From NCBI GenBank assembly GCA_001782035.1, contig MFNL01000004.1, positions 9,290 to 73,289 on the forward strand: DNA of 64,000 bases. Reading direction: 5' to 3'. The first letter of the stretch is position 1. Each line of letters starts with the position of its first letter. Below are positions 1,884 through 20,641 of the stretch, in pieces. The translations under genes and the position numbers were made by a program. Source of the stretch: Candidatus Levybacteria bacterium RIFCSPHIGHO2_01_FULL_37_17 (lineage in GTDB: Bacteria; Patescibacteriota; Microgenomatia; Levybacterales; UBA12049). Below the pieces are notes generated by a model. It saw only the letters and a program-made list of their open reading frames with translations, had not been told where the DNA came from and did not search any database.

Positions 1884-1976
1884 TACTAAGTAGTTGATAT
1901 CTTGTAATTAGTATCTAGCACGTCAAATATAATGTCAAGGATAAAAACTGTTGTGCTATATTAGAAGATAAGCTTA

Positions 1977-3641
1977 ATGAAAAAAACTGTCTTCCTCTTT
2001 CTTGGGATTGGTTTTTTAGTCTACATTCAGTCTCTATTTAATGGGTTTGTTATTGATGATTTGACTCAAGTTGTAAACAATAACGTGCTTTACGGATTTG
2101 ATAAAATTCCCTCGATATTTGTTTACTTTTGGGGAAGCTATTATAAACCTTTATTCTACGTAACATTAAATATTATTTTGACTATTTTTGGCAATAATCC
2201 ATTTCCATTTCACCTAGCTCAGCTCATCTTCCATATTGCAAATACTGTCCTTATATTTCTTCTGTTTTCTAGATTCTTCAAAAAAAATGTAAGTTTTATC
2301 TTGGCTTTAATTTTTCTAGTTCACCCTGCAATTTCGGAAGCAGTTTTGTATATTTCAGCTTTTCAAGATGTTTTATACTCATTTTTTGGACTTATTGCTT
2401 TAAATATTCTAGTACGCTTCGAAAAACCAAAATACACGGCATTGGTATTTTTCTTTTTGATTCTTTCACTACTTTCTAAAGAAACCGGCATTGCATTTTT
2501 CGGCATTGCAGTTGTTTATAAATTTCTTTTTGATAGGACAAATTTTGTCAGATATCTAATATACTCCTCTTTAATTGTTGGAGTTTATGTTTTTATAAGG
2601 ATTGGAATTTTGAACATTAATCCTTTTAATTCCGCTTTTAAGCCAATTTGGACTTATGATTCAGATATTTATACTAGATTAATCAGTATTCCGAAAATTA
2701 TTTATAAATACTTAACGCTCTTTGTCTGGCCGGATAAGCTTCAGGTGATACAACTTTGGTGGGTTAGAAAAGTAAATTTTCAAGATTTTTACTTGCCATT
2801 AACTGCAATTACAGTTTTTTTTAGCGTAGTTAGTTTATATGGTATACGTAAATATCTATTATTAAAGAAAGAATCATTTCCGTATTTGTTTTTTCTTGCT
2901 TTTCTTGTAATAGGACTTCTTCTTCATATTCAAATTATTGCCTTAGATGCGACTTTTGCCGAACGCTGGTTTTATCTTCCCCTTATTGCTCTTTTAGGAC
3001 TTGTCGGATTTATCCTAAACCGAATTAAATTCAATTCAGGCACGAAAAAGATTTTTTATGTGTTGGCAATACTGATAATAATGCTTCTTTCTACCAGAAC
3101 TTTTATAAGATCATTTGATTGGTTAGGCCATAAAAGTTTAGCAGTTCACGACTTTGAGGTAGATAAATTAAATCCAGGAACCTATTTCTTGCTGGCCGAC
3201 TATTACATGGGGAATAAACAGTACGCAGATGCATATAAACTCTATACAAAAGTAGGGGAAATTGCACCTAAAAATGAAATTGTGGACAGTCCGTTGGCTT
3301 TTATCGAACTTTTCAGGGGAAATGAAAAAAAAGCGGAAGAAATACTACGAAACTCCCCTAAGACAATCTTACCTAATCTGCTGAATTATGCATACATATT
3401 ACTTAAGTCGGATCCTAAGGCAGGAAAGGTTCTTTTAGTTAATTCATTAAAAAAATTTCCAGATAGCTACGAAATTAATATATTACTTGGTCTAACAGAG
3501 TATAATTTAGGAAACAAGGAAGAAGCAGTTAAGTATATTAAAAAAGCTATAACCCTAAACAGGTCAAAGACAGCTGAATATAATATGCTTTTAAACTCAA
3601 TTGATAAAAATATTCCAATAAATATAAATTATAAACTGTAG
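1977..3641 (+). CDS. GT-C type membrane glycosyltransferase-like protein (PMT/TMTC/DUF1736-like N-terminal domain with FVIDD motif) with C-terminal TPR repeats
   Basis: Track ORF of 554 aa. The N-terminal 400 aa are polytopic with an early luminal-loop acidic motif (NGFVIDD). The C-terminal 150 aa are TPR-like (YYMGNKQYADAYKLY..., LGLTEYNLGNKEEAVKYIKKAI). Confidence 0.5.
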   Translation: MKKTVFLFLGIGFLVYIQSLFNGFVIDDLTQVVNNNVLYGFDKIPSIFVYFWGSYYKPLFYVTLNIILTIFGNNPFPFHLAQLIFHIANTVLIFLLFSRFFKKNVSFILALIFLVHPAISEAVLYISAFQDVLYSFFGLIALNILVRFEKPKYTALVFFFLILSLLSKETGIAFFGIAVVYKFLFDRTNFVRYLIYSSLIVGVYVFIRIGILNINPFNSAFKPIWTYDSDIYTRLISIPKIIYKYLTLFVWPDKLQVIQLWWVRKVNFQDFYLPLTAITVFFSVVSLYGIRKYLLLKKESFPYLFFLAFLVIGLLLHIQIIALDATFAERWFYLPLIALLGLVGFILNRIKFNSGTKKIFYVLAILIIMLLSTRTFIRSFDWLGHKSLAVHDFEVDKLNPGTYFLLADYYMGNKQYADAYKLYTKVGEIAPKNEIVDSPLAFIELFRGNEKKAEEILRNSPKTILPNLLNYAYILLKSDPKAGKVLLVNSLKKFPDSYEINILLGLTEYNLGNKEEAVKYIKKAITLNRSKTAEYNMLLNSIDKNIPININYKL

Positions 3642-3657: not shown

Positions 3658-6600
3658 TTAATTTATTATCAAGAAATTGAATTTAACATCAATTGGTACT
3701 GGCACGCTTATTCCTACAGTAAAGCTTTCTTGCGGCAATTGTCTTAAAAGATAAAGTGATTGACCCAGGGTTTGACTAACAGGTGTCACATAAATAAGTG
3801 AGTTCTCCGTTACAAGGGTGTTTTTAACAGTTATTTCGCTCTTATTAGCTTTTAGTGTTATTGTTCCGGCAGATCCCGTTGCTAAGACTTCATTTCCGGC
3901 AGCCAAAGCCTGCTGAGCGATAGATAAATTGAGCTTAGAAAATGTCCCGGCGCCTGATGCAACTAAATTTCCCAGACTATCAACTTTAAGGACTTCATCG
4001 GTTTCATTCTGAATTCTTAATTCTGAATTCTTAATTCCTATGTTGTTAGCATATAACGTTCCCTCAACGGTAACATCGCTTCCAAACTTGGCATCTCCAT
4101 TAGGGTCGATGTAAATTAAACCCGCCATAATTGAAATTCCTCCTTGTCTAAGGGGTTGCAGGTTTAAATCCGAACCTAGTATATTTATTGAGTTTTCCGC
4201 CAAAATTAGAGTCCCATTTATTGCAAGCTGTCCTACAATTGAAGTATCGGAAAGGGTAGTAATTCCATAAGTTGTAAGTCCTTGGCTAAATACAGCGGTC
4301 TGTGAATTCAAATTATCAACATAAGCAAGTTGACTAGAAAAAGTAGCGATATTTATGTAGTTACTAGATGCTAGTTCATAGTTACTAGTTCCGGAGGAAC
4401 TTGCTGACAGAGTTGGAAAAGGCTCACTAGTTGCTGCCTGTGAAGCAGTATAATAGTTATTCGTAACATAATTTGCCGAAAGAGTTGCCGTTTGTATATT
4501 TAATCCTTCTATCTGATCGGCAATTATTCTTTGAGCCCGCAGTGTTCCGGATAGAGTGGCATTGTTTGCACTAATATTTCCGCTTGAGTCAATAGATGCA
4601 ACAGCCGATCCGCTCGCGTTTTGAATCTCAAGCTTCGACTCACCCTTGTTATCATTTAGTTTTATTGCAATTTTTGCATCCGGATTTTTAGCCAACGGGT
4701 TAAGCAGATTTGTGCTTATCTGTTCGCTTGATGCAATTGGTGAAATTAATTGTTGCTGTGTGATTGTTTCATTGACAACTCTAGCTATATAATTTCTTAA
4801 ACTTTGACCTGCAATAGTCACAGAATCGGCAGTTACATTTAGCGAACTTGTAGTAATGCTTCCTATATTAGCCGATCCCGTTACTACGATATTTCTTGTA
4901 TTAATAATGCCCGATCGTATGTTTCCAATAAAGGCCTCCGCAAGCCCTGCGATTCTAGTTATATTTCTTCCCGACTCTTTTACTATAAATTGGTCCGGAT
5001 TCTGCTCAATAATACTCAGATTTCCGGAGTTACTTATAGCTAGATCGGCTTCGATATTTACCATTTTTGTTTTTTGGCCTTCTATCTGAAGTTGCTGGTC
5101 CTGTACACCCTTGACGATTAAAGGGGTTATCCTTCCATAATCTATTCCCCATGGATTACTTTTAAAATCATCCCCATTTGTTCCAGGGGAGACTGCAAAT
5201 TCATAAGCTTCATACAATTCCTGTGCTATAAAACCAGTTACTCGTGATTCATCAGAGATCCATGTGAAATCTCTAACTTTAATTTTCATTAAATCATCTA
5301 TGGTAAAATGAGTGTTTACTATATCCTTCTTTAATCTTGCATCTGAGGATGTTTCAAAAAAGGTACAATTACCCGCACATCCTTCTATATTCCCCTGGTT
5401 AACCTCATCGCTATCGCGAAAAGCTACAAACCAAGTATTCGCGGTACTGTCAGCAACTCCTGCCTGAATTAGCATTACATTCTGGTTGGCATTTGTGTTT
5501 GTATTTTCTACTGCTAATACCCAGCAGCTTGCGCATGCGCTTGAACTGCGGTTATAGGAAATGTCAACGTCTGTTGCGCTGTCAACAGTAGCATTAAAAA
5601 TAGCGCCGCCGTCTACTGTTAAGGCGCCTGAAAAGGCGCCTGTCGTAGCTGTAAAACTGATTGTCCCGTTGGTATTATTATCAATCGTTTCACCATTTTG
5701 AAGATTAATGTCTGTGGTAACCCCGGTGTTTGAAATGCTTATCGCAGTTGTAGCTGCGCCTGAGAGAGTGAAAGCTGTTCCGGTAGCATTACTTGAAATG
5801 TTTCCAGTTGAACTTACCTGGAAGTCATCTCCGTTTCCAACCGTGAAGAGAGCTGCCGGTGATGTATCTCCGATCCCCACATTACCGTTGTATTCAATTG
5901 TCAGCAAATTCGTAGCATCATATCTCCAGTCAATAAAAGCTGAAGAGGCAGTGTCTCGTGCCACAAGATGAAACGGTCCGTCGAGCCAACCATAAGGCTG
6001 AAGAGTTAATCTAGAGACTTCACCTGCAGTTCCGGCTGAGGCTATCTGGGAGCCAATATGAACATCAGATGCTCCAGCCGTGACAGCATCTACGGTTCCC
6101 CCATTGTTATCAAATATTGCCTTCCCTGTAAATTTAATGAATCCGTTGGTATTATTATCAATCGTTTCACCATTCTGAAGATTAATATCTGTAGTAACTC
6201 CTGTATTAGTAAAGTTAAGGCCTGTTGTTGCAGCGCCTGCAACAGTTATACCGCCAGTTCCGTCTACTCGTAAATTTGCATTTGTTTCAATATCCCCTTC
6301 AACATACAATTCTTCTGCTGTAGTAGCGATATCACCATCAGTGGATATGTTTCCTATGACAAACAAGCCATCAGATTTAATCTGAGCCCATACTGTGGCC
6401 CCAAAAATACTTGAAAAATATAAATCCTTTGCGCTACCGCTAGTAAGAGCAGATCCCGACTGTATATAATTTGCTGTTGAGTTTGCTGCAACTCTGAAGA
6501 TAGAATCATCAGTTGCAGATGAAAATATATCTACAGAGCCTCCATTTTCTATTTTAAATTTAGTTGTTCCAGAGCTTGAAGCAGTTAGTAAATCCTGATT

Positions 6601-9600
6601 TTCTAACTGGTCAAAAATCGCCAATGCTTTCCCCGTTACTTGCACTGATAATGGTCGAGTGGCGTGGAGCACAGAAATTGGCGTTGCTGTTCCTAATCCA
6701 AATAAATTGCTAGAGTCATTATAAAAAATATTGCTGTTGTCTTCTGCCAAAACTCCGCTTGTTCCTGCAAAAACTACGGAGCCAGCTGTAAAAGTAGTAT
6801 CAATTCCTCCGTCTGCGTAAATCAATCCATCTACCTCAAGCGCGTCTGATACAAGAAGATCGTTGCTCGCGCCAACATTTGCTCCGCCGGCTGTTGCAGT
6901 CCCAATTCTGTTATATGCAACAGCAGTTGAGCCTGCGATTTGAAATACGCCACTTGTTATAAGCGACGTTCCACCGGCAGGGTCTAAAAAGTAGGTAGAA
7001 TCGTTAATGTCATAATATTGCGAACTATAAGTATTCCCGCTGCTATCAATTCTAAATTGCGTAATCCCTGATTTACTTGCCGCGATAATATCTTGATTTT
7101 CTATCTGGTCAAATATAGCCAAAGCCTTACCAGTTGCACCTGCTAAAAGAGGTCTTGTGACATATAATTGCGAAATTGGATTACTATGCCCAATTCCCAC
7201 ATTTCCTTGCCCTTTAACTACAAATCTGGCTACACCACTGTTACTTGCGGTAATTAGATCGCCTGTTTTATCGTTATCAACAACAAGCGCTGCGAATGAA
7301 GTATGAGCAGAAATACTTGCAACCGGATTTGTCCCCTGGAATTTCCCTCCTGCTCCTATTAAGCGAAATGTGGCAGAGCTAGTGGCTTGAGCTCCGAAAA
7401 GGAAATCAACAGTACTGTTATTGGTATAGAGAGCTCCGGATGTTTGATTCCAGAATTCATCTGTTGTTACTCCAGTCCCACAATATCCAAATGCCGGACT
7501 TGTCCCACCAAGCAAACACTGGGATGAAGTTCCTGCTGTAGTCTGTGCTAAAACTCCGCTTCCATTTGTGTACAAAGGCCCACCATTTGAGGTAAAAGCG
7601 GAGAATGTGATTGTGCCGCTTGATGTTATACCTGTTGCCGCTGTAATAGCGCCTGTTGAGTTGATTTGGAAATCATCTCCGTCACCAACTGTAAAAAGGG
7701 AAGCAGGAGATGAGTCTCCGATTCCCACATTTCCTCCTGCAAATATGGCAGAGTAGTTAGTGCTTGATCCGGATTGGGAATCTATATACAAACCGTAAGA
7801 TGTTGTAGTCCCACTCAAACCTTGATTATTGACAAGAACACCGTATTGGGTGGTTGGTTTCAAGGAGCCAAGGGCCACAGGGGAACCTATTCTTGCCGTT
7901 GTCCCATTTGTTACTGCTCCCGAAACAGCACTGTAAACATTTGCAAAGTCTCCTGCAATTGCGTCCGTTATTGTAACACTTGAAGGGGGAGCAAAAAATG
8001 CAGCCAAAAGTCCACCCCTTGCCAGTGCAATGCTGGAGCTTGGAGCAAACGTGGGTGCAACATCTATTCCCGCGGGAATATTACCAGCTCCGTTAAAAGT
8101 ATTTCGCAGCCTTACTGAGGCAGCGTCATTGCTATTAGTTATTGTAGAGGTCACGCTTATTATGCCGACATTTGATCCTGTTGTAGTCAAACTTCCGGAA
8201 ACTACTACTTGACCATTTGCAACATCTAACAGTTGTGAAGGTGTTGTCGTACCAATTCCAACTTTCCCGCTATAACCGTTATTGGGCATAATTATTAATT
8301 GTCCGCTAATTGATGCTTGAGTTTGGTTGCTTAAGTTGGAAAGTCCTGTAAATGCAAATTTAGCACTAGTTGTCGCTTGGCCTCCGATAAGAAGATCAAC
8401 AGTTGAATTGTTAGGATACAAAGCTCCGTTTGTTTGGTTCCAGAAGAAATCAAGACTTTGGCCGGTTGCACAGCTCCCAAAACTGGGAGTCGTTCCACCA
8501 AGCAAACACTGAGTAGTTGTCCCTGCTGTAACTTGAGCAAGCTGCCCGCTTCCATTTGTATACAACGGACCACCATTCGAAGTAAAAGTAGAAAATGTAA
8601 TTGTTGAAGAAGCGGTAATGGTTCCTATATTTAGTAAATTTCCGGAGGAGTCAATTCTTTGCGTGCCCCCACTACCACCAGTATTTATTCCTGTTGTTCC
8701 ATTAAGCGTTGTTCCTTGAAATGTTCCATTTGTTTGAAGATTTCCTCCAATTGCTTTAATAAGATATATACCCCCGTAAAAATTGACTCCTTTCCCATCA
8801 TCTGTAAAGGCTAAGCCGCCGCCTGCAATTGTTACCCTGTCAGTAGGGGAAGCTGTGCCAACGGTTAGATTCCCTCCTGTTCCCGCATTTGGATATACGA
8901 CTAAATTTCCAGAAACTGTTGCAGTAGTTGTTCCGCTATTAACATTTAAAACCGCAAATTTCGCAGAAGTTGTTGATTGTCCGCCTATTAATAAATCTAC
9001 TGTTGAATTGTTAGGATATAGTGCTCCATCAGTTTGGTTCCAATAAAGTTCATTAGAAGGAGTACCTGCAGGACAGCTGCTCCAAGACGGAGCAGAGGCG
9101 CCTGAGAGCAAACACTGTCCTGCCGTATTTGTATTTGCCCCTGTCAAAACTCCTGTTGATACAGTTGCATACAGTACGTTATTGTTAGCGTTAAATCCAC
9201 TGAATGTAATAGTACCTCCCGCGGATAAGTTGTTAAGCCCTGTTACGCTCTGGTTATTTCCCGTTACAGCTCCTGTTAATGTTAGCGCTCCTAAACGTAG
9301 AGTACCACCGGAGGCTGAAATATCGTGATTTCCGGTGGCTGTAAAGGTTAAATCTGAATCTGCACCGCTTAAAGTAAGCCCAGTCGTGCCCTGAAGAGTC
9401 GAATCTCCGGCTAAAGTTTCGTTTCCGCTGTTATCAATTGTAAACTGGGCAATGCCTGAAGCTGATGCGCTAATAATAGGACCGGTTGAGTCTTGGTTAA
9501 TAGTAAATGCGCTTCTGCCGGAGCTTGTGGCAAGAACTGAGAACTCATCATTTATTTGTACGCTTCCGGGTACTGTTGAAATATTTCCTGAATTTGAGTT

Positions 9601-11349
9601 ATTAACTAAAGGCTTCTGTAAGTCTATTTTTCCCAACCCATCGGGAACAACTTGTACGTTTGAGCCTGTTCCAGTATTCGTAGTAAGCAAAAGAGGCTGA
9701 CCCGAAAGTTTAAATGTGCCTCCACTTGCGGTAAAAGTTGGATTAGCAGAGCCTCCGATTGTTAAATTACCGCTTGAATCAAGTGCTAAAACTACGTCAC
9801 TCGTACCTGCACCTGCAGCAGTTGACGGCGGGAGTCCCTGCAAAGTTTCCGAATTTGCAGCATACGCAACGGTTGCTAACTGCTGGCGTGGGGTTAGTTC
9901 GTCTGTTGATTCAATTGTCACACCCAAATAAAGCGCAGCGTTTTCGCTAAACAGGGTAGAGGGAATTGAGGTAACATTTCCTAGAATGTTGTTAAAAATT
10001 CCGTCCGTGTCGGGATTTGCCCTGTCAACTTCCTGCCACAAAAGGGCAGAGCCTGAAGCTGTTATATCGTTGTAAATTGCATAACGAATTAAAGTGCTAG
10101 AGGTAATTGGATTATCGTTTATATCTGTTAACCTACCTTGAAAGGACAAGATTCTGGGAGGAGCAGTAGGTAGGGCTGCGAATGTTGGCTGAGACTGGGG
10201 TTTTGCAAAAAATGCATTATATAAACCAAAACCCACAACCGCTAAAAAGATAATTAAAACCGCAAAATTAAAGTAATGAGCAATTGCATAAGAATGATAT
10301 CTTATGTACCACTTTGGTCTTGTATATCGAGCGTGAAAAATAAGCTTTTGAATTAGGCTCATTTGCTTTGTAGATACTGCAAATGGAGCATAAAGCTTCT
10401 TAGATATATTTTTTATACCTAGCAAATCCCTTGGAGTAATGTTTTTAATGGCAACTGTAGCCTCGCTTTTTTTAAAAACAGGCTGGCCTCTTAGTTTCCA
10501 TAAAGCCTCGATTCCCTTAGACGCAAATGAGGCAAGGGGTGCAGTTAAGATTGCGTCGAAAGTAAGTGAGCCTGCTCTGGCAAGTTTTTGAGCCAGCCTT
10601 AAGGGAGGGAAAGCCGAGTAGCCTTTATGGCTAATGGCTAAGGGTTTATGGCTAAGGGTTTCGGGAATATTTAGAGGCTGTTTTGCTTTGGAAATATTTT
10701 CAACCGAATAATCTCTGCTTACAGTTATTCCTTCTTGGTTCGCCCAGGCTAGATAGCGGCGAAGCGAAGACAATTTTCGATTGACAGTAGCCGGCGAAAA
10801 GCCTACCTCTTGCGTTAGTCTTTTCTTATATTCGTTAATCAACTCCGTATTTAAGGTTGCAAGTATTTCCTCGCTCGTACTGGTATTTAGCACTTGTTTA
10901 GCCCAAGCAATAAATTGTTTAACGTCAATGATATAGTTTTTTATAGTAAGATGTGATGATTTATCTTCAAAGAGGAAGTTTTTAAAATCTTTTAGGCTAA
11001 ACGGATCCTTCTTCGCCAAGGCTTCGGCGGATTCGGTCTTTTGCTGTTCGAATATATTAACTTGAATGATGTCCTCATCTTTGAGGAACTTAAAGAATTT
11101 TCGCAAGCTCGAAACATGCCTTTCCATTGAACTTGCAGATAAACTCTCCGCACTTTCATTCCTGTATGCCTGGATAAATTCAAAGTTAATAGAGTTAGGG
11201 GAAAATGTTCTTCCGGTTTTAGTTTCAAACCAGCGGATGAAATGCGATATATCAGAGATATAATTTTTAACCGTAATCTTAGAAGGAGTTTGTGGTTGTG
11301 AAAAAAGATAGTCTTTAAATCGCGTAAGTATAATAGGCAGGTTATTCAT
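3658..11349 (-). CDS. Giant (2563 aa) membrane-anchored surface fibre-like protein. Order of parts: N-terminal tandem tyrosine-recombinase core-binding (SAM-like) domains; one TM helix; Thr/Ser/Gly/Asn-rich repetitive ectodomain; internal peptidase S74 (phage tail-fibre intramolecular chaperone) domain; a further 558-aa C-terminal region
   Basis: Single ORF in the track. Residues about 20-110 and 125-215 each match the phage-integrase N-terminal SAM-like/core-binding pattern (ITVKNYISDISHFIRWF...MERHVSSLRKFFKFLKDEDII and LTIKNYIIDVKQFIAWA...TVNRKLSSLRRYLAWANQEGI). There is a hydrophobic helix YFNFAVLIIFLAVVGFGLYNAFF around aa 355-378. The ectodomain is low-complexity and rich in T/S/G/N with repeated modules. 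The motif SSDARLKKDI...GFIAQELYEA...IDYGRITPLIVKGVQDQQLQIE (Ser about aa 2005) matches the S-D-x-R-L-K Ser/Lys dyad and downstream consensus of the endosialidase/tail-fibre C-terminal intramolecular chaperone domain. Confidence 0.85.
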   Translation of the reverse strand: MNNLPIILTRFKDYLFSQPQTPSKITVKNYISDISHFIRWFETKTGRTFSPNSINFEFIQAYRNESAESLSASSMERHVSSLRKFFKFLKDEDIIQVNIFEQQKTESAEALAKKDPFSLKDFKNFLFEDKSSHLTIKNYIIDVKQFIAWAKQVLNTSTSEEILATLNTELINEYKKRLTQEVGFSPATVNRKLSSLRRYLAWANQEGITVSRDYSVENISKAKQPLNIPETLSHKPLAISHKGYSAFPPLRLAQKLARAGSLTFDAILTAPLASFASKGIEALWKLRGQPVFKKSEATVAIKNITPRDLLGIKNISKKLYAPFAVSTKQMSLIQKLIFHARYTRPKWYIRYHSYAIAHYFNFAVLIIFLAVVGFGLYNAFFAKPQSQPTFAALPTAPPRILSFQGRLTDINDNPITSSTLIRYAIYNDITASGSALLWQEVDRANPDTDGIFNNILGNVTSIPSTLFSENAALYLGVTIESTDELTPRQQLATVAYAANSETLQGLPPSTAAGAGTSDVVLALDSSGNLTIGGSANPTFTASGGTFKLSGQPLLLTTNTGTGSNVQVVPDGLGKIDLQKPLVNNSNSGNISTVPGSVQINDEFSVLATSSGRSAFTINQDSTGPIISASASGIAQFTIDNSGNETLAGDSTLQGTTGLTLSGADSDLTFTATGNHDISASGGTLRLGALTLTGAVTGNNQSVTGLNNLSAGGTITFSGFNANNNVLYATVSTGVLTGANTNTAGQCLLSGASAPSWSSCPAGTPSNELYWNQTDGALYPNNSTVDLLIGGQSTTSAKFAVLNVNSGTTTATVSGNLVVYPNAGTGGNLTVGTASPTDRVTIAGGGLAFTDDGKGVNFYGGIYLIKAIGGNLQTNGTFQGTTLNGTTGINTGGSGGTQRIDSSGNLLNIGTITASSTITFSTFTSNGGPLYTNGSGQLAQVTAGTTTQCLLGGTTPSFGSCATGQSLDFFWNQTNGALYPNNSTVDLLIGGQATTSAKFAFTGLSNLSNQTQASISGQLIIMPNNGYSGKVGIGTTTPSQLLDVANGQVVVSGSLTTTGSNVGIISVTSTITNSNDAASVRLRNTFNGAGNIPAGIDVAPTFAPSSSIALARGGLLAAFFAPPSSVTITDAIAGDFANVYSAVSGAVTNGTTARIGSPVALGSLKPTTQYGVLVNNQGLSGTTTSYGLYIDSQSGSSTNYSAIFAGGNVGIGDSSPASLFTVGDGDDFQINSTGAITAATGITSSGTITFSAFTSNGGPLYTNGSGVLAQTTAGTSSQCLLGGTSPAFGYCGTGVTTDEFWNQTSGALYTNNSTVDFLFGAQATSSATFRLIGAGGKFQGTNPVASISAHTSFAALVVDNDKTGDLITASNSGVARFVVKGQGNVGIGHSNPISQLYVTRPLLAGATGKALAIFDQIENQDIIAASKSGITQFRIDSSGNTYSSQYYDINDSTYFLDPAGGTSLITSGVFQIAGSTAVAYNRIGTATAGGANVGASNDLLVSDALEVDGLIYADGGIDTTFTAGSVVFAGTSGVLAEDNSNIFYNDSSNLFGLGTATPISVLHATRPLSVQVTGKALAIFDQLENQDLLTASSSGTTKFKIENGGSVDIFSSATDDSIFRVAANSTANYIQSGSALTSGSAKDLYFSSIFGATVWAQIKSDGLFVIGNISTDGDIATTAEELYVEGDIETNANLRVDGTGGITVAGAATTGLNFTNTGVTTDINLQNGETIDNNTNGFIKFTGKAIFDNNGGTVDAVTAGASDVHIGSQIASAGTAGEVSRLTLQPYGWLDGPFHLVARDTASSAFIDWRYDATNLLTIEYNGNVGIGDTSPAALFTVGNGDDFQVSSTGNISSNATGTAFTLSGAATTAISISNTGVTTDINLQNGETIDNNTNGTISFTATTGAFSGALTVDGGAIFNATVDSATDVDISYNRSSSACASCWVLAVENTNTNANQNVMLIQAGVADSTANTWFVAFRDSDEVNQGNIEGCAGNCTFFETSSDARLKKDIVNTHFTIDDLMKIKVRDFTWISDESRVTGFIAQELYEAYEFAVSPGTNGDDFKSNPWGIDYGRITPLIVKGVQDQQLQIEGQKTKMVNIEADLAISNSGNLSIIEQNPDQFIVKESGRNITRIAGLAEAFIGNIRSGIINTRNIVVTGSANIGSITTSSLNVTADSVTIAGQSLRNYIARVVNETITQQQLISPIASSEQISTNLLNPLAKNPDAKIAIKLNDNKGESKLEIQNASGSAVASIDSSGNISANNATLSGTLRAQRIIADQIEGLNIQTATLSANYVTNNYYTASQAATSEPFPTLSASSSGTSNYELASSNYINIATFSSQLAYVDNLNSQTAVFSQGLTTYGITTLSDTSIVGQLAINGTLILAENSINILGSDLNLQPLRQGGISIMAGLIYIDPNGDAKFGSDVTVEGTLYANNIGIKNSELRIQNETDEVLKVDSLGNLVASGAGTFSKLNLSIAQQALAAGNEVLATGSAGTITLKANKSEITVKNTLVTENSLIYVTPVSQTLGQSLYLLRQLPQESFTVGISVPVPIDVKFNFLIIN
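4977..5345 (-). other. Peptidase S74 / intramolecular chaperone auto-processing domain inside the giant protein (predicted self-cleavage at the Ser of SDARLK)
   Basis: Minus-strand codons tca gat gca aga tta aag aag gat ata at 5337-5311. Protein motif SDARLKKDIVN...RDFTWISDESRVTGFIAQELYEAYEF...WGIDYGRITPLIVKGVQDQQLQIE. Confidence 0.65.
7340..9130 (-). repeat. Three copies of a ~55-aa module (QCLLGGT.P.FG.C..G....FWNQT.GALY.NNSTVDLLIGGQ.T.SAKF) encoded at about 7340-7520, 8340-8530 and 8940-9130. Further duplicated modules (DINLQNGETIDNNTNG at about 5690-5740 and 6150-6200; IGD.SPA.LFTVG.GDDFQ..STG at about 5800-5890 and 7660-7740)
   Basis: Repeated peptides are visible in the giant ORF translation. 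They are mirrored by near-identical antisense ORF peptides in the track (e.g. 8327..8512 vs 8783..9046, and 5708..5971 vs 7568..7756). Confidence 0.7.
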
Positions 11350-11924
11350 ATTTTGAGACTAATTTCCGAAATAAAAATTCCAAATTAGCACTCCAGGCAC
11401 GAAATTATACGGATTATACGGTTTATACAAAGGTTCATGTTTATTCTGATACATACTATATAGAATAGAAAATTTATGTGAAAATTGTCAATATCCTAGA
11501 GTATAGTGCAAAATTAATATTGATATATTAAGATCTAGTCATTTAAATCCAATTTTTTTTGTGAAAATGGCCATATTTAGTGTTTTAACGCATTAAAACA
11601 TACTACGAAAAAAATTAGAATATATAACACAGTGTCAATTAATATATAAAAGTATAACACGACTTTACTTATCATTTGAGTCCTAGAATATAATATTAAG
11701 GCAATTTAAAATTATAATTTCCCCAATTAATATTCAAATTTTTATTTTATTTCTTACTCATATTTATATTAGCGAACCATAAGCGCGGGTGATAACTCTT
11801 TTAAAAGCCATTTGCGGATTGATAATTCAACCTAAATTATTTTTTTACAGTTTTATACTTTTTTCAATCTGATTTCACGTATTAAAATTTGTTTTTTTTA
11901 CAATGTGCAGATACAATTTAGCTA

Positions 11925-12782: not shown

Positions 12783-13754
12783 TTATTTTTCCGAGGCGTT
12801 TTCAGGCTCTTTTGTGGCCTCGCTTGAGCCTTTAGGACCGCTTTCTTGTCTCCTTTGGTAGTATTTCCAGCCTAATAATACCGCAACGGCTACAAGAATT
12901 ATTATAATTGTAACTTTCCACGGGAATACCCAGAAAGTAAGTGAGGCGACCAAAGGCAAATTATTATCTGTGCCATATGATGCAGCCAGTTTTGCGTTGT
13001 ACGGTCCAATCATAAACATGCTTCCGAAAGTATTTTCATAATCTCTAACCGTTTCCGGGAATATATTTCTTTGGTCAAGCTGCTGGCTTTCGTTAAAGAA
13101 AAGCCCGCTTACCGTAATGCTTCCTTTAGGCATAATATGAAGATCGGAAGCGTTTTTAATCTGTGTCAAAATTTTTATTGGGCCATACTCGGCAAGCATG
13201 TCGGTAAAAAACTTACTTACTTCTGCTTTTATAGTTACATCACCGGCAACTGTAATGTAGAAAAGCGAACCAAGCTGTGTATTAACCGTTCCCCCTGTTG
13301 CATCTTTTTTTTCTTGATTTATAGGCTCATATACCAAAGCGGCATAATGGCCTCCGGGTTTGGCATCGGCAGGAACCCTCAAATAGTAGCTGATTATTTG
13401 TGTTGCGCCGGGTTGTAGTGTAAATTCATTTGGAGTAGCAACAATCCATGATGCAGCCGAATATTTATTATTGAGAGTATTTGGAGCAAGAAGCTGGGGA
13501 GTTCCTTTGCTGTCGGATACAATATAATCTTGAACGCCGACTTTAAAAGTTAGCGCAATATTGCTTTCGTTTACAATTTTGGTTGTTCCCTCTGTGGACT
13601 GTCCGGGATTTAACTCGTGAGAAATATTTGGATTAATTAAAGTAATTGTTCGCTGCAGTTCTTGTGCAAAAGCTGTCCCTACTGTTAAAAAAACCAAAGC
13701 AAAAAGCGTGGTTGCAAGTACTCTTTTCTTAAATTTTAAGGGCAGATTTTTCAT
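12783..13754 (-). CDS. CscA/DUF916-like cell-surface protein (signal peptide, about 270-aa ectodomain, C-terminal TM anchor)
   Basis: 323 aa. Signal peptide LATTLFALVFLTVGTAFA. Shares the motif SW(I/V)....E.TL.P......I...VP..A..G.H with the 343-aa ORF (15266-16297) and the 376-aa ORF (43083-44213). C-terminal TM VTIIIILVAVAVLLGW. Confidence 0.55.
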   Translation of the reverse strand: MKNLPLKFKKRVLATTLFALVFLTVGTAFAQELQRTITLINPNISHELNPGQSTEGTTKIVNESNIALTFKVGVQDYIVSDSKGTPQLLAPNTLNNKYSAASWIVATPNEFTLQPGATQIISYYLRVPADAKPGGHYAALVYEPINQEKKDATGGTVNTQLGSLFYITVAGDVTIKAEVSKFFTDMLAEYGPIKILTQIKNASDLHIMPKGSITVSGLFFNESQQLDQRNIFPETVRDYENTFGSMFMIGPYNAKLAASYGTDNNLPLVASLTFWVFPWKVTIIIILVAVAVLLGWKYYQRRQESGPKGSSEATKEPENASEK

Positions 13755-13756
13755 TT

Positions 13757-15265: not shown

Positions 15266-16297
15266 TTAATTTATCTTATTTTTAACTCGAAGCACTATAA
15301 AAACAACAATTCCCAAAACTATTAAAATTACTGCTAAATAAGTTGCCGGGAATGCAAAAAAAGAAACAGATCGGCTGAATTTTTCCCCATTTTCACCAAA
15401 TGTCAGACTTAAGTTTGCTTTATAAGGGCCAATTAGAAATTTTTCAGGCCAAATTGCCACAGGATAATTGGAGCTCGTAATCGTTTTTTCTATTTCTTTA
15501 AACTCCGCTGAATCCACTTTTATCTGTGTTTCATCCGGTATTAATCTTTGTGATCCTGCCAAAACATTTACAGATAAAAGTTTTACTTTTCCAACTTTTT
15601 GTCCGAATAAATTTTCAATAATAATCTCACCATTTATTGGGACAAAATGATCACTTGCGTTTTCAACCTGAACGGTAAATGGAACCGGGCCACTGTCTAT
15701 AAATAAAGGGGAGCTGAATTTGTCAATAAAGCCTTTAGTTTCGCCTTTCGGACCAACTGAAAGCAGAACATTCATTGCAACGCCGGCTGATGCAAGAGAT
15801 GAATTTGAAATCGTATCGGGCTTTGGATTTGTGGCAAAGAAAACCGTAAAATAATAATCTCCTTTGGCTTCATTCGGTGGTATATTTACTTCGAAGTCAA
15901 ATTCTTTTTTCTGCTTTGGAGAAAGCGTAAATGATCTTATTGATATTCCTTTATCTTTAATTTTAATTCTGTTTATAAGAAGGGGGTCAGGGAAGCTTTC
16001 AAATGTATCTAAAATCTCAATTTGTCCGTTGTTTGAAGTTGAAGCCTTAAAGGCTTTAAGCTGAATAATAATATCAAGGCTCTGCTCTGTTGGATTTTCC
16101 AGGCTAAATTTGGATTTTACCTCGGCAGGTGAAGTTGCATCAATTTCCATAACAGGTGGGAAAATTCCCAAAGAAACACTTTGAGCGAAAGCGTTTCGAG
16201 TTGAAAGTTGAAAGTAAAAAGTTGAAAGTAAAAGAAATACGAAGATTTTAAACTTCAAACTATTAAAAATAACTTTAAAAACTTTATAACTTTTCAC
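15266..16297 (-). CDS. CscA/DUF916-like cell-surface protein, paralog of 12783-13754
   Basis: 343 aa. Signal peptide; IGPYKANLSLTFG matches IGPYNAKLAASYG in the 323-aa paralog; C-terminal TM ATYLAVILIVLGIVVFIVL. Confidence 0.55.
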   Translation of the reverse strand: MKSYKVFKVIFNSLKFKIFVFLLLSTFYFQLSTRNAFAQSVSLGIFPPVMEIDATSPAEVKSKFSLENPTEQSLDIIIQLKAFKASTSNNGQIEILDTFESFPDPLLINRIKIKDKGISIRSFTLSPKQKKEFDFEVNIPPNEAKGDYYFTVFFATNPKPDTISNSSLASAGVAMNVLLSVGPKGETKGFIDKFSSPLFIDSGPVPFTVQVENASDHFVPINGEIIIENLFGQKVGKVKLLSVNVLAGSQRLIPDETQIKVDSAEFKEIEKTITSSNYPVAIWPEKFLIGPYKANLSLTFGENGEKFSRSVSFFAFPATYLAVILIVLGIVVFIVLRVKNKIN

Positions 16298-16305
16298 TTT
16301 ATAAA

Positions 16306-17037
16306 CTAATAACTTGGTATTGCTATATAATTTACTATATTTCGATATAGTCCTGCGGGCTGAGTTCCTGAAATATTAACTTTATAGGTTATATCAGATT
16401 TTCTGTTTCGTCCTACATTTGTAGAACTCATTACTGCAACTGCGGAAGGCGAGGATATAAAAGATTTGTAATAAGTCGGATCCGAAAATCCGCTTACGCA
16501 GTCTGTGCCTGAAACGTTATCGCATCTATAACCAAATCCATAAGTTAAGGCACTTGTCCATGCGGCTGAAGTTGTTGGAGTGCACGTTCCGCCGTCGCAG
16601 GAAGTTGCCGGAATATCAAACCCGCTGGCATCCACTCTTAAATCGTGGTTTTGCGAAACCGTAACTTGGTAACCGTAAGCCGAGCCGTTTGAAACCGTTA
16701 GCTGGTTGGTTCGGCTAACTGGCGAAGTTGGTGAAATAACTCCAAAATCAACCAAGGTGCTAGAAATTGAAAATCTGAAGTAAATTATGCTTGATATATA
16801 CTGAAAGCCTGCGCGCACTTTATAGTTGGGTCCTGTAAAAAGATTATTCGGAGTCTGTCCGGATGTAAATTGTAATTGAAAACCTGAGCCCGTCGGTTTT
16901 CCCGCAATGCTATTTAAATTTCCCATTTGCAGGATGTAACTGTCGTTTTTGAGAGTTTGACCCCAAACCCTTGATACACCAAATAGCATTAAAGTAATAT
17001 ATAGCCATATTAAAATGATGAATAATAAGTATTTCAT
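16306..17037 (-). CDS. Small secreted WxL-like surface protein
   Basis: 243 aa with a signal peptide. Contains AAWTSALTYGFG and the C-terminal motif TQPAGLYRNIVNYIAIPSY, which is shared with the other three cassette proteins. Confidence 0.45.
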   Translation of the reverse strand: MKYLLFIILIWLYITLMLFGVSRVWGQTLKNDSYILQMGNLNSIAGKPTGSGFQLQFTSGQTPNNLFTGPNYKVRAGFQYISSIIYFRFSISSTLVDFGVISPTSPVSRTNQLTVSNGSAYGYQVTVSQNHDLRVDASGFDIPATSCDGGTCTPTTSAAWTSALTYGFGYRCDNVSGTDCVSGFSDPTYYKSFISSPSAVAVMSSTNVGRNRKSDITYKVNISGTQPAGLYRNIVNYIAIPSY

Positions 17038-17681
17038 TTTTCTTGATTTTCCTTAGATTCTTCTCGCAAGTCTCCAGTTTCTTCAAGGATTTCGTTTAAC
17101 TTTTCCAAATCCTCTTCTTTAAGCATACCTTTTTCATCCTCAATTATCTCTTCTACGTCTTTTGAAATAGTATCTGCAGCTTCTTTTTCCCGTTCCTCTA
17201 TTGCGTTAACTTTTTCATCCTGCTGGTCGGATTTTTGATATTCACGGCCGAAAAAATAGGCAAGTGGCGACACCAGAGCAATAGATGCCACTTTTAAAAT
17301 ATTAGCAGTAAAATCTCCGGTGTTTAAATCCGGAATAAAAATTAGGATAGACCCTGCAATAAATATAAAAACTGTTAAAGGATCAAAGACGAATGCAATT
17401 CCAAAAGCAAGAAAATATATTATAAAAAATAAAGGGCTGTTTAGGCCTCCTGTTGCAAAAATAAGAAGGAAGACGAGCGTATTTAATATAAATATGCCAA
17501 AGTTGCCTTCCTGCCCAAGTTTTAGAAAGGTTTTACCTCGTCTTCTTGCAACAAGCAGTAGATATAAAGCTATGAAAAGCCCTAAAAGCTGGACCGTATA
17601 ATCCTTAAGTGGGGAGTTTTGCCAGATGTAAATAACGCCAAAAGAAAGCACAAGAGTTGCGCCTTGGACAGCAAGTTTCAT
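17034..17681 (-). CDS. Polytopic membrane protein with an acidic coiled-coil C-terminal tail; first gene of the 17681-to-12783 operon
   Basis: 215 aa; four or more TM helices; E/K-rich tail. Its stop codon overlaps the start of the next ORF by 4 nt. Confidence 0.45.
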   Translation of the reverse strand: MKLAVQGATLVLSFGVIYIWQNSPLKDYTVQLLGLFIALYLLLVARRRGKTFLKLGQEGNFGIFILNTLVFLLIFATGGLNSPLFFIIYFLAFGIAFVFDPLTVFIFIAGSILIFIPDLNTGDFTANILKVASIALVSPLAYFFGREYQKSDQQDEKVNAIEEREKEAADTISKDVEEIIEDEKGMLKEEDLEKLNEILEETGDLREESKENQEK

Positions 17682-20044: not shown

Positions 20045-20641
20045 ATGGAAGATTTGCAAGAGCAGCTTGCTCCTATTTTTAAAAGATTTTGGCTCCCTAT
20101 AGTTCTTGCTTTGATCGCTTTGATGTTTTTTGCATATGGTATGATATCTTTGCTGTCAAAATCTTCTACCCCTCAAGTTAGATTTGAAACCGTTGAGTCT
20201 CTTCAAGCAGAAGCAGAAATCGCTGTTGATATCGAAGGCGCAGTAGTTAAACCGGGCGTATATAAGCTCAAATCAGGTTCAATTGTTCAGGAAGCATTAA
20301 TTGCGGCAGGAGGAGCATCAGAGGACGCAGATAGGGAATGGATGGCAAAAAATTTGAATTTGGCCTTAAAACTTACAAATGGACAAAAAATATATATTCC
20401 AAAATTGGGAGAGACCGGAACTATTTCTGTAATTCAAGACGTTGAAAGCAACTCAACAGCTCTTATAAACATAAATACAGCATCAAGTAGCGAATTAGAC
20501 ACGCTTCCCGGCATAGGTCCGGTAACAAGTACGAAAATAATAGATAACAGGCCATATAACTCAATAAATGACCTTTTAGACAAAAAAATTGTCGGGCAAT
20601 CAACCTTTGAGAAGATAAAAGATAAAATAACCACTTTGTGA
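20045..20641 (+). CDS. comEA: Competence protein ComEA (SLBB domain plus tandem helix-hairpin-helix)
   Basis: 198 aa with an N-terminal TM. C-terminus NINTASSSELDTLPGIGPVTSTKIIDNRPYNSINDLLD. Confidence 0.85.
   Translation: MEDLQEQLAPIFKRFWLPIVLALIALMFFAYGMISLLSKSSTPQVRFETVESLQAEAEIAVDIEGAVVKPGVYKLKSGSIVQEALIAAGGASEDADREWMAKNLNLALKLTNGQKIYIPKLGETGTISVIQDVESNSTALININTASSSELDTLPGIGPVTSTKIIDNRPYNSINDLLDKKIVGQSTFEKIKDKITTL

What the first reader, a model, noticed from the sequence alone, without database searches (positions are those of the whole stretch)
3658..11349. Giant surface protein combining cytoplasmic tandem integrase core-binding domains, a repetitive fibre ectodomain and an internal tail-fibre S74 self-cleaving chaperone domain
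The 2563-aa protein opens with two consecutive copies of the tyrosine-recombinase N-terminal SAM-like/core-binding fold, with no catalytic domain. A single TM helix follows, then about 2200 aa of T/S/G/N-rich sequence carrying three copies of a ~55-aa Cys-containing module. The phage tail-fibre/endosialidase intramolecular chaperone signature (S-D-A-R-L-K Ser/Lys dyad, GFIAQELYE, IDYGRITPLIVKG) sits about 560 aa before the C-terminus. In phages this domain is strictly C-terminal and is removed after trimerisation. The only well-known internal use is eukaryotic MYRF, where it releases a DNA-binding domain from the membrane. Here the DNA-binding-type domains are cytoplasmic and the S74 domain is extracellular. 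That predicts a trimeric, proteolytically processed adhesion fibre whose cytoplasmic end could bind DNA or another ligand. Such a protein is a candidate host-attachment structure if this organism is an episymbiont.
Basis: partly seen in the sequence, partly recalled or inferred. Interest (0 to 1): 0.85.

Follow-up and report, generated by a model that had tools for sequence, protein, structure and literature searches.

The report
Giant self-cleaving surface fibre of Levybacteria
A 2,563-residue protein of an uncultured Levybacteria (CPR) bacterium has two integrase-type DNA-binding-fold domains inside the cell, one membrane helix, and a phage-tail-fibre-like fibre outside with a built-in self-cutting domain; it belongs to a large, unstudied family mislabelled "integrase" and is probably a cell-surface attachment fibre.

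Summary
ORF 3658-11349 (-) encodes 2,563 aa. It has two Phage_int_SAM core-binding (CB) domains and no catalytic domain. One TM helix follows (362-380), then an acidic 2,180-aa G/T/S/A/N-rich ectodomain with internal repeats. A Peptidase_S74 domain starts at Ser2002 (S-x4-K dyad), 562 aa before the C-terminus. The exact protein occurs in independent assemblies, so it is not a chimera.

It is one member of a large family, mostly from Levybacteria and annotated "site-specific integrase/XerD". At least 189 species genomes encode a relative, and the C module matches 862 cluster representatives at 50% identity. The family has a conserved N module (CB-CB, basic linker, TM, stem, about 640 aa), a variable mosaic middle, a swappable fibre-terminator slot, and a conserved 460-aa C module ending FNW[LI]I[VI]N.

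The slot holds a phi29-gp12/G2-type chaperone in 119 of 166 members, S74 in 29, and other modules in 18.

The gene is chromosomal, sits at a fixed syntenic position next to WxLIP-like surface-protein genes, and has no relative in the viral contigs scanned.

Best reading: a type-II-anchored, trimeric, autoprocessed tail-fibre-like surface fibre. What the cytoplasmic CB pair binds is unknown. I rate it a new variant of a known kind, apparently undescribed.

The parts
3658..11349 (-). Whole gene, 2563 aa plus stop. This is OGH02180.1/OGH36553.1, 'hypothetical protein A2798_03570', Candidatus Levybacteria bacterium.
11462..11491 (-). Promoter-like site (TTGACA-18-TATTCT) about 110 bp upstream of the ATG, inside a 575-bp AT-rich intergenic region. 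This is a consensus match only.
11074..11343 (-). CB1: first tyrosine-recombinase core-binding (SAM-like) domain, residues 3-92, cytoplasmic.
   Evidence: Pfam PF02899 9-92; AF2 helices 3-91 at pLDDT about 90; Foldseek matches to lambda Int CB and XerA. Invariant residues T26, K28, N29, Y30, D33, W40, R77.
10726..11004 (-). CB2: second core-binding domain, residues 116-208, cytoplasmic.
   Evidence: Second PF02899 stretch; XerC model matches 124-236; 30% identical to CB1. Invariant residues T135, K137, N138, Y139, D142, W149, R191.
10279..10725 (-). Basic cytoplasmic linker, residues 209-357 (KR 16%, DE 3% over residues 236-357). It has a long helix at 248-286 and the juxtamembrane motif RPxWYxxYHSY.
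10207..10278 (-). Single transmembrane helix (signal anchor), residues 358-381. N-in topology is inferred.
   Evidence: Hydropathy peak at 362-380, conserved in position in 40 of 40 homologues; AF2 helix 355-386; charge asymmetry.
9430..10206 (-). Conserved membrane-proximal ectodomain stem, residues 382-640. It includes a beta-sandwich at 400-495.
   Evidence: BLASTP coverage in 120 of 120 homologues; AF2 pLDDT 81-89 for 400-495; mean pairwise identity 55-62%.
5347..9429 (-). Variable mosaic fibre region, residues 641-2001. G/T/S/A/N-rich, no Pfam family. It carries the recurring GxVGIG(T/D)xxP motif and internal repeats.
   Evidence: the family profile hits the Bd2133 beta-helix 8ond_A at E 3.5e-7.
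8818..9312 (-). Cys-pair repeat module, copy 1 (residues 680-844; Cys746/Cys759).
8212..8682 (-). Cys-pair repeat module, copy 2 (residues 890-1046; Cys948/Cys960).
7165..7692 (-). Cys-pair repeat module, copy 3 (residues 1220-1395; Cys1278/Cys1290).
5050..5346 (-). Peptidase_S74 intramolecular-chaperone domain, residues 2002-2100. The predicted cleavage and nucleophile residue is Ser2002 (codon 5344-5346). The predicted general base is Lys2007 (codon 5329-5331).
   Evidence: PF13884, E 3.7e-8; S-x4-K present in 30 of 30 S74-type family members; coordinates checked.
3661..5049 (-). Conserved family-specific C module, residues 2101-2563. It is fibrous (beta segments and short helices) and ends in a beta-sandwich (2484-2563, nt 3661-3900) and the invariant C-terminal motif SFTVG...FN[WF]LI[IV]N.
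   Evidence: Present in about 112 of 120 homologues; 862 representative clusters, always at the C-terminus; AF2 pLDDT 85-95 for the last 80 aa; matches to phage tail-fibre and K1-lyase_C domains.
15266..16297 (-). Conserved co-directional upstream neighbour o343. It is a WxLIP_PGBD-like surface protein with an N-terminal signal and a C-terminal TM anchor.
   Evidence: Present in 48 of 50 loci with enough upstream flank; PF06030 hit in 15 of 23 members.
16306..17037 (-). Conserved co-directional upstream neighbour o243. It is a secreted protein with four invariant Cys and no Pfam family.
   Evidence: Present in 49 of 50 loci.
17034..17681 (-). Conserved co-directional upstream neighbour o215. 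It is a multi-pass membrane protein with a net-acidic helical C-terminal tail.
   Evidence: Present in 36 of 50 loci.

Best explanation
The gene encodes a type-II (N-in) membrane-anchored, phage-tail-fibre-like surface fibre. It is a core chromosomal component of the Levybacteria cell envelope.

Shown here:
- The domain order is CB-CB, basic linker, one TM helix, conserved stem, variable mosaic fibre, S74 chaperone/protease domain with an intact S-x4-K dyad, then a conserved 460-aa fibre-plus-beta-sandwich C module.
- This order is conserved in more than 160 complete homologues.
- The slot before the C module holds alternative self-processing or fibre-terminating modules.
- The locus is conserved next to WxLIP-like surface-protein genes.
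- No relative was found on viral contigs.

Inferred mechanism:
1. The TM helix acts as a signal anchor and the 2,180-aa ectodomain is exported.
2. Three chains are brought into register by the C-terminal part.
3. The S74 domain chaperones folding of the upstream triple-stranded fibre, then cuts at Ser2002.
4. This separates a membrane-anchored fibre (1-2001) from a conserved 562-aa fragment (S74 plus C module).
5. The fragment is shed or stays bound non-covalently as a cap.
6. The variable part just upstream of the cut becomes the distal, specificity-determining end, as in phage fibres. It mediates attachment to a host cell or surface.

The cytoplasmic tandem CB domains and the basic linker (net +22) hold the fibre base to an anionic cytoplasmic ligand. 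That ligand could be DNA or the nucleoid, or an acidic protein such as the tail of the conserved neighbour o215. Which of these it is remains open.
For: Domains and motifs.

Topology: one TM helix conserved in position. Cytoplasmic part pI 9.9, ectodomain pI 4.3, and all Cys outside.

Family architecture: N module in 120 of 120 homologues and C module in about 112 of 120, with a variable middle.

Slot before the C module, in 166 complete members: 119 G2-type (D-x-[AGS]-E in 117, close variants in 2), 29 S74-type (30 of 30 S74-type sequences, counting this protein, keep S-x4-K), and 18 other. The slot always lies 450-780 aa from the C-terminus.

Tail-fibre relationship: the family profile hits the Bdellovibrio MAT fibre Bd2133 beta-helix at E 3.5e-7. 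The C-terminal beta-sandwich gives 34 BFVD hits at E <= 1e-3, mostly phage tail-fibre or K1-lyase C-terminal proteins. There are also weak PDB tailspike matches and a weak K1-lyase_C hit at E 0.009.

Precedent: S74 self-cleavage at an SDxxxK motif in a surface fibre of a bacterium that preys on other bacteria was shown experimentally for Bd3182 (PMC10769870).

Genomic setting: chromosomal and syntenic in 49 of 50 loci, at least 189 species genomes, no viral contig.
Against: No experiment or multimer model supports trimerisation or cleavage here. The AF2 monomer model of residues 1985-2563 is poor (mean pLDDT 50), including the S74 part.

An S74 domain followed by 460 conserved residues has no characterised precedent. 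Release of the C module is therefore an extrapolation.

About 11% of members have no recognisable self-cleaving module in the slot. Cleavage therefore cannot be essential to the family's basic function.

The conserved distal C module could equally be the functional tip.

Synteny with the surface-protein genes extends into LeuRS-ComEA-ComEC. It may reflect general gene-order conservation in one lineage rather than functional coupling.

No episymbiotic lifestyle or host is documented for this organism.
Confidence: 0.55

Rival explanations
1. Transmembrane DNA-binding device. The tandem CB domains bind DNA: a specific site in the manner of a XerC/XerD pair on dif, or the nucleoid non-specifically. 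The fibre then works as a ToxR-like membrane-tethered regulator or a chromosome/DNA tether. It would couple contact at the fibre tip to gene expression, chromosome positioning or DNA handling. This can coexist with the fibre model. It is a rival only for what the cytoplasmic end does.
For: The CB domains are bona fide XerC/D-type (E 1e-21 and 3e-21). They keep the family's hallmark motifs, with invariant basic residues K28, R77, K137 and R191 and nearly invariant R83, K84, K192 and R197. Both are basic (median pI about 9.6 across 36 members). They are as conserved as the outer modules, at 50-53% mean pairwise identity. The topology of cytoplasmic DNA-binding fold, single TM helix and external domain equals that of ToxR/CadC-type regulators (established knowledge). 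ComEA/ComEC lie 9 kb away in conserved synteny.
Against: No DNA binding was tested. CB domains alone bind DNA weakly in characterised recombinases (general knowledge, from memory). No repeated or palindromic candidate site stood out in the upstream region. The ComEA/ComEC genes are divergently oriented beyond LeuRS, so they are more likely just syntenic. The basic charge could equally serve the positive-inside rule, lipid binding, or the acidic tail of o215.
Confidence: 0.25
2. Non-cleaving connector. In this family the S74/G2 modules serve only as trimerisation or registration nodes. The conserved C module stays covalently attached and is the functional distal tip. It would bind a conserved target such as peptidoglycan or another glycan, or the neighbouring o243/o343 surface proteins. 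The variable middle would be a spacer or decoy shaped by phage or host pressure.
For: The C module is conserved (about 50% mean pairwise identity; tip 57%) and always terminal, with an invariant C-terminal motif. Its beta-sandwich resembles tailspike C-terminal domains. About 11% of members carry modules with no known protease motif in the same slot.
Against: The catalytic motifs are kept in every S74-type member (30 of 30) and G2-type member (119 of 119, counting 2 close variants). This argues that chemistry, not just fold, is under selection. In all characterised S74 proteins with an intact dyad the bond is cut (PMC10769870; other cases from memory).
Confidence: 0.15
3. Misannotation or artefact class: a true tyrosine recombinase (as the databases name the family), a prophage tail-fibre gene, or an assembly or frameshift chimera joining an integrase 5' end to a fibre gene.
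For: Database names are 'site-specific integrase' and 'site-specific recombinase XerD'. Phage-type S74 and K1-lyase_C-like domains are present.
Against: There is no catalytic domain, and scores are 76 and 69 bits against XerC/XerD cut-offs of 335 and 330. True recombinases appear only at E > 1e-4, against E <= 4e-19 for all but one of the other hits, which are family fragments. The identical protein comes from independent assemblies. The architecture recurs in more than 160 complete homologues. The setting is chromosomal housekeeping synteny. No relative was found in 2.9 million viral contigs.
Confidence: 0.02

Closest known systems
Bdellovibrio bacteriovorus MAT (mosaic adhesive trimeric) fibres, S74 subfamily (e.g. 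Bd3182; Bd2133 structure 8OND; Caulton et al. 2024, PMC10769870)
   Same: Both are chromosomally encoded, phage-tail-fibre-like surface fibres of a bacterium that lives on other bacteria. Both have a conserved base, a mosaic variable distal part, and an S74 domain with an SDxxxK motif. The family profile detects the Bd2133 beta-helix.
   Different: [quoted passage not shown] They have no cytoplasmic part. Their S74 domain is the C-terminus. Here the base is CB-CB plus a TM anchor, and the S74 domain is followed by a conserved 460-aa module.
Phage tail fibres and tailspikes with C-terminal intramolecular chaperones (K1F endosialidase and T5 pb1, S74 type; phi29 gp12, Peptidase_G2 type)
   Same: The same two chaperone/protease domain families are used, with intact catalytic motifs. 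They sit directly after a fibrous region. The terminal beta-sandwich is like tailspike C-terminal domains.
   Different: This gene is not on a phage. The chaperone is internal rather than terminal. The protein is an integral membrane protein with a cytoplasmic domain.
MYRF (eukaryotic membrane-bound transcription factor with an internal S74-type ICA domain)
   Same: An internal S74-type domain occurs in a single-pass membrane protein that also carries a DNA-binding-type domain.
   Different: In MYRF the DNA-binding and ICA domains lie on the same side of the membrane, N-terminal to the TM helix. Cleavage therefore frees the DNA-binding trimer. Here the TM helix lies between them, so cleavage cannot release the CB domains. 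The DNA-binding fold also differs (Ndt80 versus CB).
Tyrosine recombinases XerC/XerD (the source of the CB domains and of the database name)
   Same: The CB (SAM-like) fold and motifs are of XerC/D type.
   Different: There is no catalytic domain, the CB is duplicated in tandem, and the protein is membrane-anchored. The CB domains form a clade well separated from those of catalytic recombinases.
ToxR/CadC/TcpP-type membrane-bound one-component regulators
   Same: The topology is the same: N-terminal cytoplasmic DNA-binding-type domain, one TM helix, extracytoplasmic domain.
   Different: Those use an OmpR-type winged helix and small sensor domains. No regulatory role is shown here.

Membership tests
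Tyrosine recombinase (XerC/XerD, 'site-specific integrase') | C-terminal catalytic domain (PF00589) with the RKHRH-Y active site | tested here: not met
   No PF00589 hit was found. The XerC/XerD models match only positions 2-117 of about 295, at 76 and 69 bits against cut-offs of 335 and 330.
Tyrosine recombinase (XerC/XerD, 'site-specific integrase') | N-terminal core-binding (SAM-like) domain | tested here: met
   PF02899, E 1e-21, two copies. Structural matches to lambda Int CB, XerA and IntI.
Peptidase S74 / intramolecular-chaperone tail-fibre proteins | PF13884 domain above the gathering score | tested here: met
   34 bits against a cut-off of 22, residues 2002-2053.
Peptidase S74 / intramolecular-chaperone tail-fibre proteins | Ser-Lys catalytic dyad (S-D-x-x-x-K) | tested here: met
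   Ser2002 and Lys2007. The dyad is conserved in 30 of 30 S74-type family members.
Peptidase S74 / intramolecular-chaperone tail-fibre proteins | Domain is the C-terminus of the protein and is released | tested here: not met
   About 460 conserved residues follow the domain.
Peptidase S74 / intramolecular-chaperone tail-fibre proteins | Trimerisation and autoproteolysis | not testable with these tools
   Only a monomer AF2 model was possible, and the S74 region was poor.
Bdellovibrio MAT fibre family | Signal peptide followed by a conserved beta-rich N-terminal domain of about 130 aa | tested here: not met
   The N-terminus is CB-CB, a basic linker and a TM helix, with no signal peptide. The MAT definition comes from PMC10769870.
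Bdellovibrio MAT fibre family | Beta-helical trimeric fibre with capping-loop motifs | tested here: inconclusive
   The family profile hits Bd2133 residues 5-68 of the crystallised fragment at E 3.5e-7. GxVGIGxxxP motifs recur in the fibre region. No trimer model was made.
MYRF-like membrane-bound transcription factors | DNA-binding domain and ICA/S74 domain on the same side of the membrane, N-terminal to the TM helix, so that cleavage frees the DNA-binding part | tested here: not met
   The TM helix (362-380) lies between the CB domains (3-208) and the S74 domain (2002-2100).
ToxR-like one-component regulators | Cytoplasmic N-terminal DNA-binding domain, single TM helix, external domain | tested here: met
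   Topology inferred from hydropathy and charge.
ToxR-like one-component regulators | OmpR-type winged-helix DNA-binding domain and demonstrated promoter binding | tested here: not met
   The domain is a CB/SAM-like fold, not a winged helix. DNA binding was not tested.
The Levybacteria CB-TM-fibre family itself (defined here) | N module (CB-CB, TM, stem, about 640 aa), plus a C module of about 460 aa ending FN[WF][LIW]I[VI]N, plus a terminator slot 450-780 aa from the C-terminus | tested here: met

The most novel reading that the evidence does not exclude
The fibre is a physical and perhaps signalling link between the outside contact site and the chromosome. Each trimer would present six XerC/D-derived CB domains that bind DNA at the inner face of the membrane: a dif-like or other specific site, or incoming DNA. 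Host or surface contact at the processed fibre tip would then be coupled to nucleoid anchoring, gene regulation or DNA handling in an ultrasmall CPR cell. This would be a use of recombinase core-binding domains not described before.
Probability: 0.2. Interest if true: 0.85.

Novelty: new variant of a known kind. Interest (0 to 1): 0.7.

Why it matters
CPR/Patescibacteria are thought to live attached to other cells, but the attachment hardware outside Saccharibacteria is essentially unknown.

This family is a conserved, syntenic gene in hundreds of Levybacteria genomes, found as one locus per genome in all but one MAG sampled. It is currently hidden under the wrong name, "site-specific integrase/XerD". 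Recognising it has three consequences:
(1) It gives a concrete candidate for the surface fibre, with a variable part that could track host range.
(2) It corrects a systematic misannotation that inflates integrase and mobile-element counts in CPR genomes.
(3) It shows tail-fibre self-cleaving chaperones used internally, in interchangeable types, ahead of a conserved terminal module.

It also shows recombinase CB domains recruited as the cytoplasmic end of a surface protein. Both features pose clear, testable questions.

Tried and rejected
- Literature: seven full-text searches and three papers read found no description of this family. Only the Bdellovibrio MAT paper was useful.
- PDB sequence search with residues 1985-2563 gave no hit.
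- The AF2 monomer model of residues 1985-2563 was mostly unusable (pLDDT 50). Only the last 80 aa could be interpreted, and Foldseek against PDB gave nothing at E <= 1e-3.
- PHROGs gave only the integrase CB hit and one unknown-function family over the S74 region.
- Pfam found nothing in the 1,361-aa variable region.
- A search for paralogues in the window found none.
- The upstream 575-bp region showed only short AT-rich repeats of the kind expected by chance, and no candidate CB-binding site.
- The neighbouring PMT_2/TPR glycosyltransferase as a conserved partner: not conserved in other loci, within the limited downstream flank available.
- Phage origin: no relative among the viral contigs.
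- A search with the cytoplasmic 395 aa alone returned mostly truncated fragments of the same family and no second architecture.
- A possible second TM helix at about 262-280 reaches threshold only weakly, in 5 of 40 homologues and not in this protein. I rejected it as a TM segment. It would also require export of a 260-aa basic N-terminal domain.
Full report

The window carries one uninterrupted ORF at 3658-11349 on the minus strand (ATG start, 2,563 aa).

Pfam finds Phage_int_SAM_1 twice (E 1e-21) and Peptidase_S74 at residues 2002-2053 (E 3.7e-8, 34 bits against a cut-off of 22).

NCBIfam XerC/XerD models match only their N-terminal third. Scores are 76 and 69 bits against cut-offs of 335 and 330, and no PF00589 catalytic domain is found.

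The two core-binding (CB) domains (5-94 and 116-208) are 30% identical to each other (E 3e-11).

Hydropathy gives one TM helix at 362-380.

The part before the helix is basic (pI 9.9, net +22). The part after it is acidic (pI 4.3, net -78) and holds all ten cysteines. This fits an N-in, type-II orientation.

The ectodomain is G/T/S/A/N-rich. It contains three Cys-pair modules at 680-844, 890-1046 and 1220-1395 (41-73% identical), plus other repeat pairs.

The motifs SDARLK (Ser2002, Lys2007), GFIAQELYE (2039) and IDYGRITPLIVKG (2069) are present. From Ser2002 to the C-terminus is 562 aa.

2. IT IS NOT AN ARTEFACT, A PHAGE GENE OR AN INTEGRASE

The identical protein is encoded on eight contigs from independent NCBI, ENA and JGI assemblies. 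It is deposited as OGH02180.1/OGH36553.1, "hypothetical protein", Candidatus Levybacteria bacterium.

The surroundings are chromosomal: LeuRS, ComEA, ComEC and tRNA genes.

A scan of 2.9 million viral contigs found no relative.

A search with the cytoplasmic 395 aa alone found family fragments, all but one at E <= 4e-19. True recombinases with PF00589 appear only at E > 1e-4.

3. IT BELONGS TO A LARGE, CONSERVED, MISNAMED FAMILY

A search of 5.8 billion proteins gave 394 hits at E <= 1e-5. The best 120 are 1,400-4,445 aa long and all carry Phage_int_SAM. Where named, they are called "site-specific integrase" or "XerD" and come from Levybacteria or Patescibacteria.

A coverage map shows what is conserved:
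- Residues 1-640 are conserved in 120 of 120 hits.
- Residues about 2100-2563 are conserved in about 112 of 120.
- The middle is variable.

In relatives the middle holds Kelch propellers, LamG, LVIVD, pectate-lyase-like and other domains, and in one case an intein.

Nearly all complete members end in ...SFTVG(x10-12)FNW[LIW]I[VI]N.

The C module alone finds 862 representatives of 50%-identity clusters at E <= 1e-3 (469 at <= 1e-10). The match always ends at the protein's C-terminus, and lengths reach 6,048 aa.

A scan of one genome per species found at least 189 genomes with a relative. Those with meaningful names are almost all Levybacteria.

Mean pairwise identities are similar across the conserved parts:

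| Part | Mean pairwise identity |
|---|---|
| CB1 | 50% |
| CB2 | 53% |
| Stem | 55-62% |
| C module | 50% |
| C-terminal tip | 57% |

4. THE S74 DOMAIN SITS IN A CONSERVED SLOT THAT ACCEPTS ALTERNATIVE MODULES

I classified 166 complete family members:

| Module in the slot | Members | Motif |
|---|---|---|
| phi29-gp12/Peptidase_G2-type (Pfam PF11962 in short members) | 119 | D-x-[AGS]-E in 117; close variants DYME and DWAE in 2 |
| S74 | 29 | S-x4-K in 30 of 30 sequences, counting this protein |
| Neither | 18 | see below |

The slot always lies 450-780 aa from the C-terminus.

Most of the 18 share a third, unannotated module (DPLYTIDG...YSTY...GVKEE...LWxFSR). One has a fourth (APDYVFEPGY...).

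I assign the G2 Asp/Glu motif to the phi29 gp12 catalytic residues from memory of MEROPS and the gp12 structure paper. I did not test this.

It is better described as a complete tail-fibre-like unit with its usual terminator, followed by a family-specific 460-aa module.

5. STRUCTURE

The AF2 model of residues 1-660 (36-sequence alignment) shows:
- two four-helix CB bundles (pLDDT 85-93);
- a disordered basic linker with a long helix (248-286);
- the TM helix (355-386);
- a beta-sandwich at 400-495 (pLDDT 81-89).

Foldseek matches the CB domains to the lambda Int CB domain (2oxo, TM 0.74), XerA (5hxy, rmsd 1.6 A over 88 aa) and IntI.

The monomer model of 1985-2563 is poor, as expected for a trimeric fibre. 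The exception is the last 80 aa, a beta-sandwich at pLDDT 85-95. Three lines tie that domain to phage proteins:
- weak PDB matches to tailspike and tail-fibre C-terminal domains;
- 34 BFVD matches at E <= 1e-3, mainly phage tail fibres and "K1 capsule-specific polysaccharide lyase C-terminal domain" proteins;
- a sub-threshold Pfam K1-lyase_C hit (E 0.009).

A family profile also detects the beta-helix of the Bdellovibrio fibre Bd2133 (8ond_A, E 3.5e-7).

6. GENOMIC CONTEXT

I examined 50 loci with at least 8 kb of upstream flank. Three co-directional genes lie immediately upstream of the giant gene:

| Gene | Loci with it | Description |
|---|---|---|
| o215 | 36 | multi-pass membrane protein with a net-acidic helical C-tail |
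| o243 | 49 | secreted, four invariant Cys |
| o343 | 48 | WxLIP_PGBD-like, with a C-terminal TM anchor |

Beyond them lies a divergent LeuRS-ComEA-ComEC block.

Because housekeeping synteny is also kept, the linkage suggests a surface-protein cluster but does not prove functional coupling.

7. MECHANISM

Shown: the anatomy, the intact catalytic motifs, and the conservation pattern.

Inferred:
1. The TM helix is a signal anchor, and the ectodomain is exported and trimerises.
2. The S74 domain chaperones the upstream fibre and cuts at Ser2002. Self-cleavage of this kind was shown for the Bdellovibrio S74 fibre Bd3182 at its SDxxxK motif (PMC10769870).
3. This leaves a membrane-anchored fibre (1-2001) whose distal end is the variable region. 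The conserved 562-aa fragment is separated from it. The fragment is either an assembly cap that is shed or a non-covalently retained tip.

This explains why both ends are conserved while the middle is mosaic. Two points count against it. About 11% of members lack a recognisable protease in the slot. No precedent exists for an S74 domain with a long conserved extension.

The cytoplasmic CB pair is as conserved as the outer modules and keeps its basic motif residues. DNA binding is plausible but untested. The acidic tail of o215 is an alternative ligand.

8. COMPARISON AND NOVELTY

The closest characterised system is the Bdellovibrio MAT fibre family. Phage tail fibres with intramolecular chaperones supply the modules. 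This protein fails the membership tests for four groups:
- tyrosine recombinases: no catalytic domain;
- classical S74 tail fibres: the domain is not terminal;
- MAT fibres: the base is different;
- MYRF: the membrane lies between the DNA-binding-type domains and the S74 domain.

I therefore rate it a new variant of a known kind, the autoprocessed tail-fibre-like surface fibre. It has two unprecedented features: a cytoplasmic tandem CB base and a conserved module after the chaperone.

No paper in the searchable library describes the family.

Interest: 0.7.

Noticed in passing
window 1977-3641 (+) and about 1-1890 (-): Two PMT_2/TPR (GT-C mannosyltransferase-like) membrane proteins lie next to the 3' end of the giant gene. 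They could O-glycosylate the S/T-rich fibre. They were not found next to the gene in other loci, though the downstream flank available there was limited.
   Followed up: partly
window 17034-17681 (-): o215 is a conserved upstream multi-pass membrane protein. Its C-terminal 60-100 aa form a conserved, net-acidic helical tail (…EKLNEILEETEDLR…). It is a possible partner for the +22 cytoplasmic part of the giant protein.
   Followed up: partly
window 15266-16297 (-) and 16306-17037 (-): A WxLIP_PGBD-like protein with a C-terminal TM anchor, and a secreted protein with four invariant Cys, lie directly upstream of the giant gene in 48-49 of 50 loci. A further WxLIP-like/secreted set (12783-15262) occurs only in the subclade nearest this window.
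   Followed up: partly
family members P0005, P0009, P0014 and others (about 260-aa module 450-700 aa before the C-terminus); P0071: A third, unannotated module (DPLYTIDG..YSTY..GVKEE..LWxFSR..DPD..LTPxSxAxxWY) occupies the S74/G2 slot in about 10% of members. A fourth type (APDYVFEPGY..SLEEVE..HLP) occurs in P0071.
   Followed up: no
P0039 residues 961-1206: One family member carries an intein (PF14890, E 3e-15) inside its ectodomain.
   Followed up: no
PDB 9i5v chain 14: A 401-aa chain of the Porphyromonas gingivalis ribosome structure, named 'RaiA', has an N-terminal 90 aa resembling a CB domain (E 4e-5). It was the best PDB sequence match to CB1.
   Followed up: no
loci L004, L006, L007, L009 and others: Many TPA MAG records titled 'uncultured Gammaproteobacteria bacterium' (binchicken/SRP isolates) carry this family in the same Levybacteria synteny. 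The titles look like placeholder or wrong taxonomy.
   Followed up: partly
window 20638-21873 (+) and 21800-22666 (+): ComEC appears split into a Competence-domain ORF and an overlapping metallo-beta-lactamase-fold ORF. Both are found side by side in 23 or more related loci, so the split or frameshift may be natural.
   Followed up: no
window about 11395-11420 (-): A tandem CCGTATAAT CCGTATAAT lies in the 5' leader about 50-70 bp upstream of the ATG.
   Followed up: no
L066 (OY970292.1), L072, L082: In a few genomes, including a closed 1.14-Mb Levybacteria chromosome, the family gene reads as a truncated ORF of 357-677 aa. This could be a pseudogene, a split gene or a sequencing error.
   Followed up: no
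L029 and L048 (same MAG, CAYWEP01): Two family loci occur in one MAG, so some genomes may carry two paralogues.
   Followed up: no
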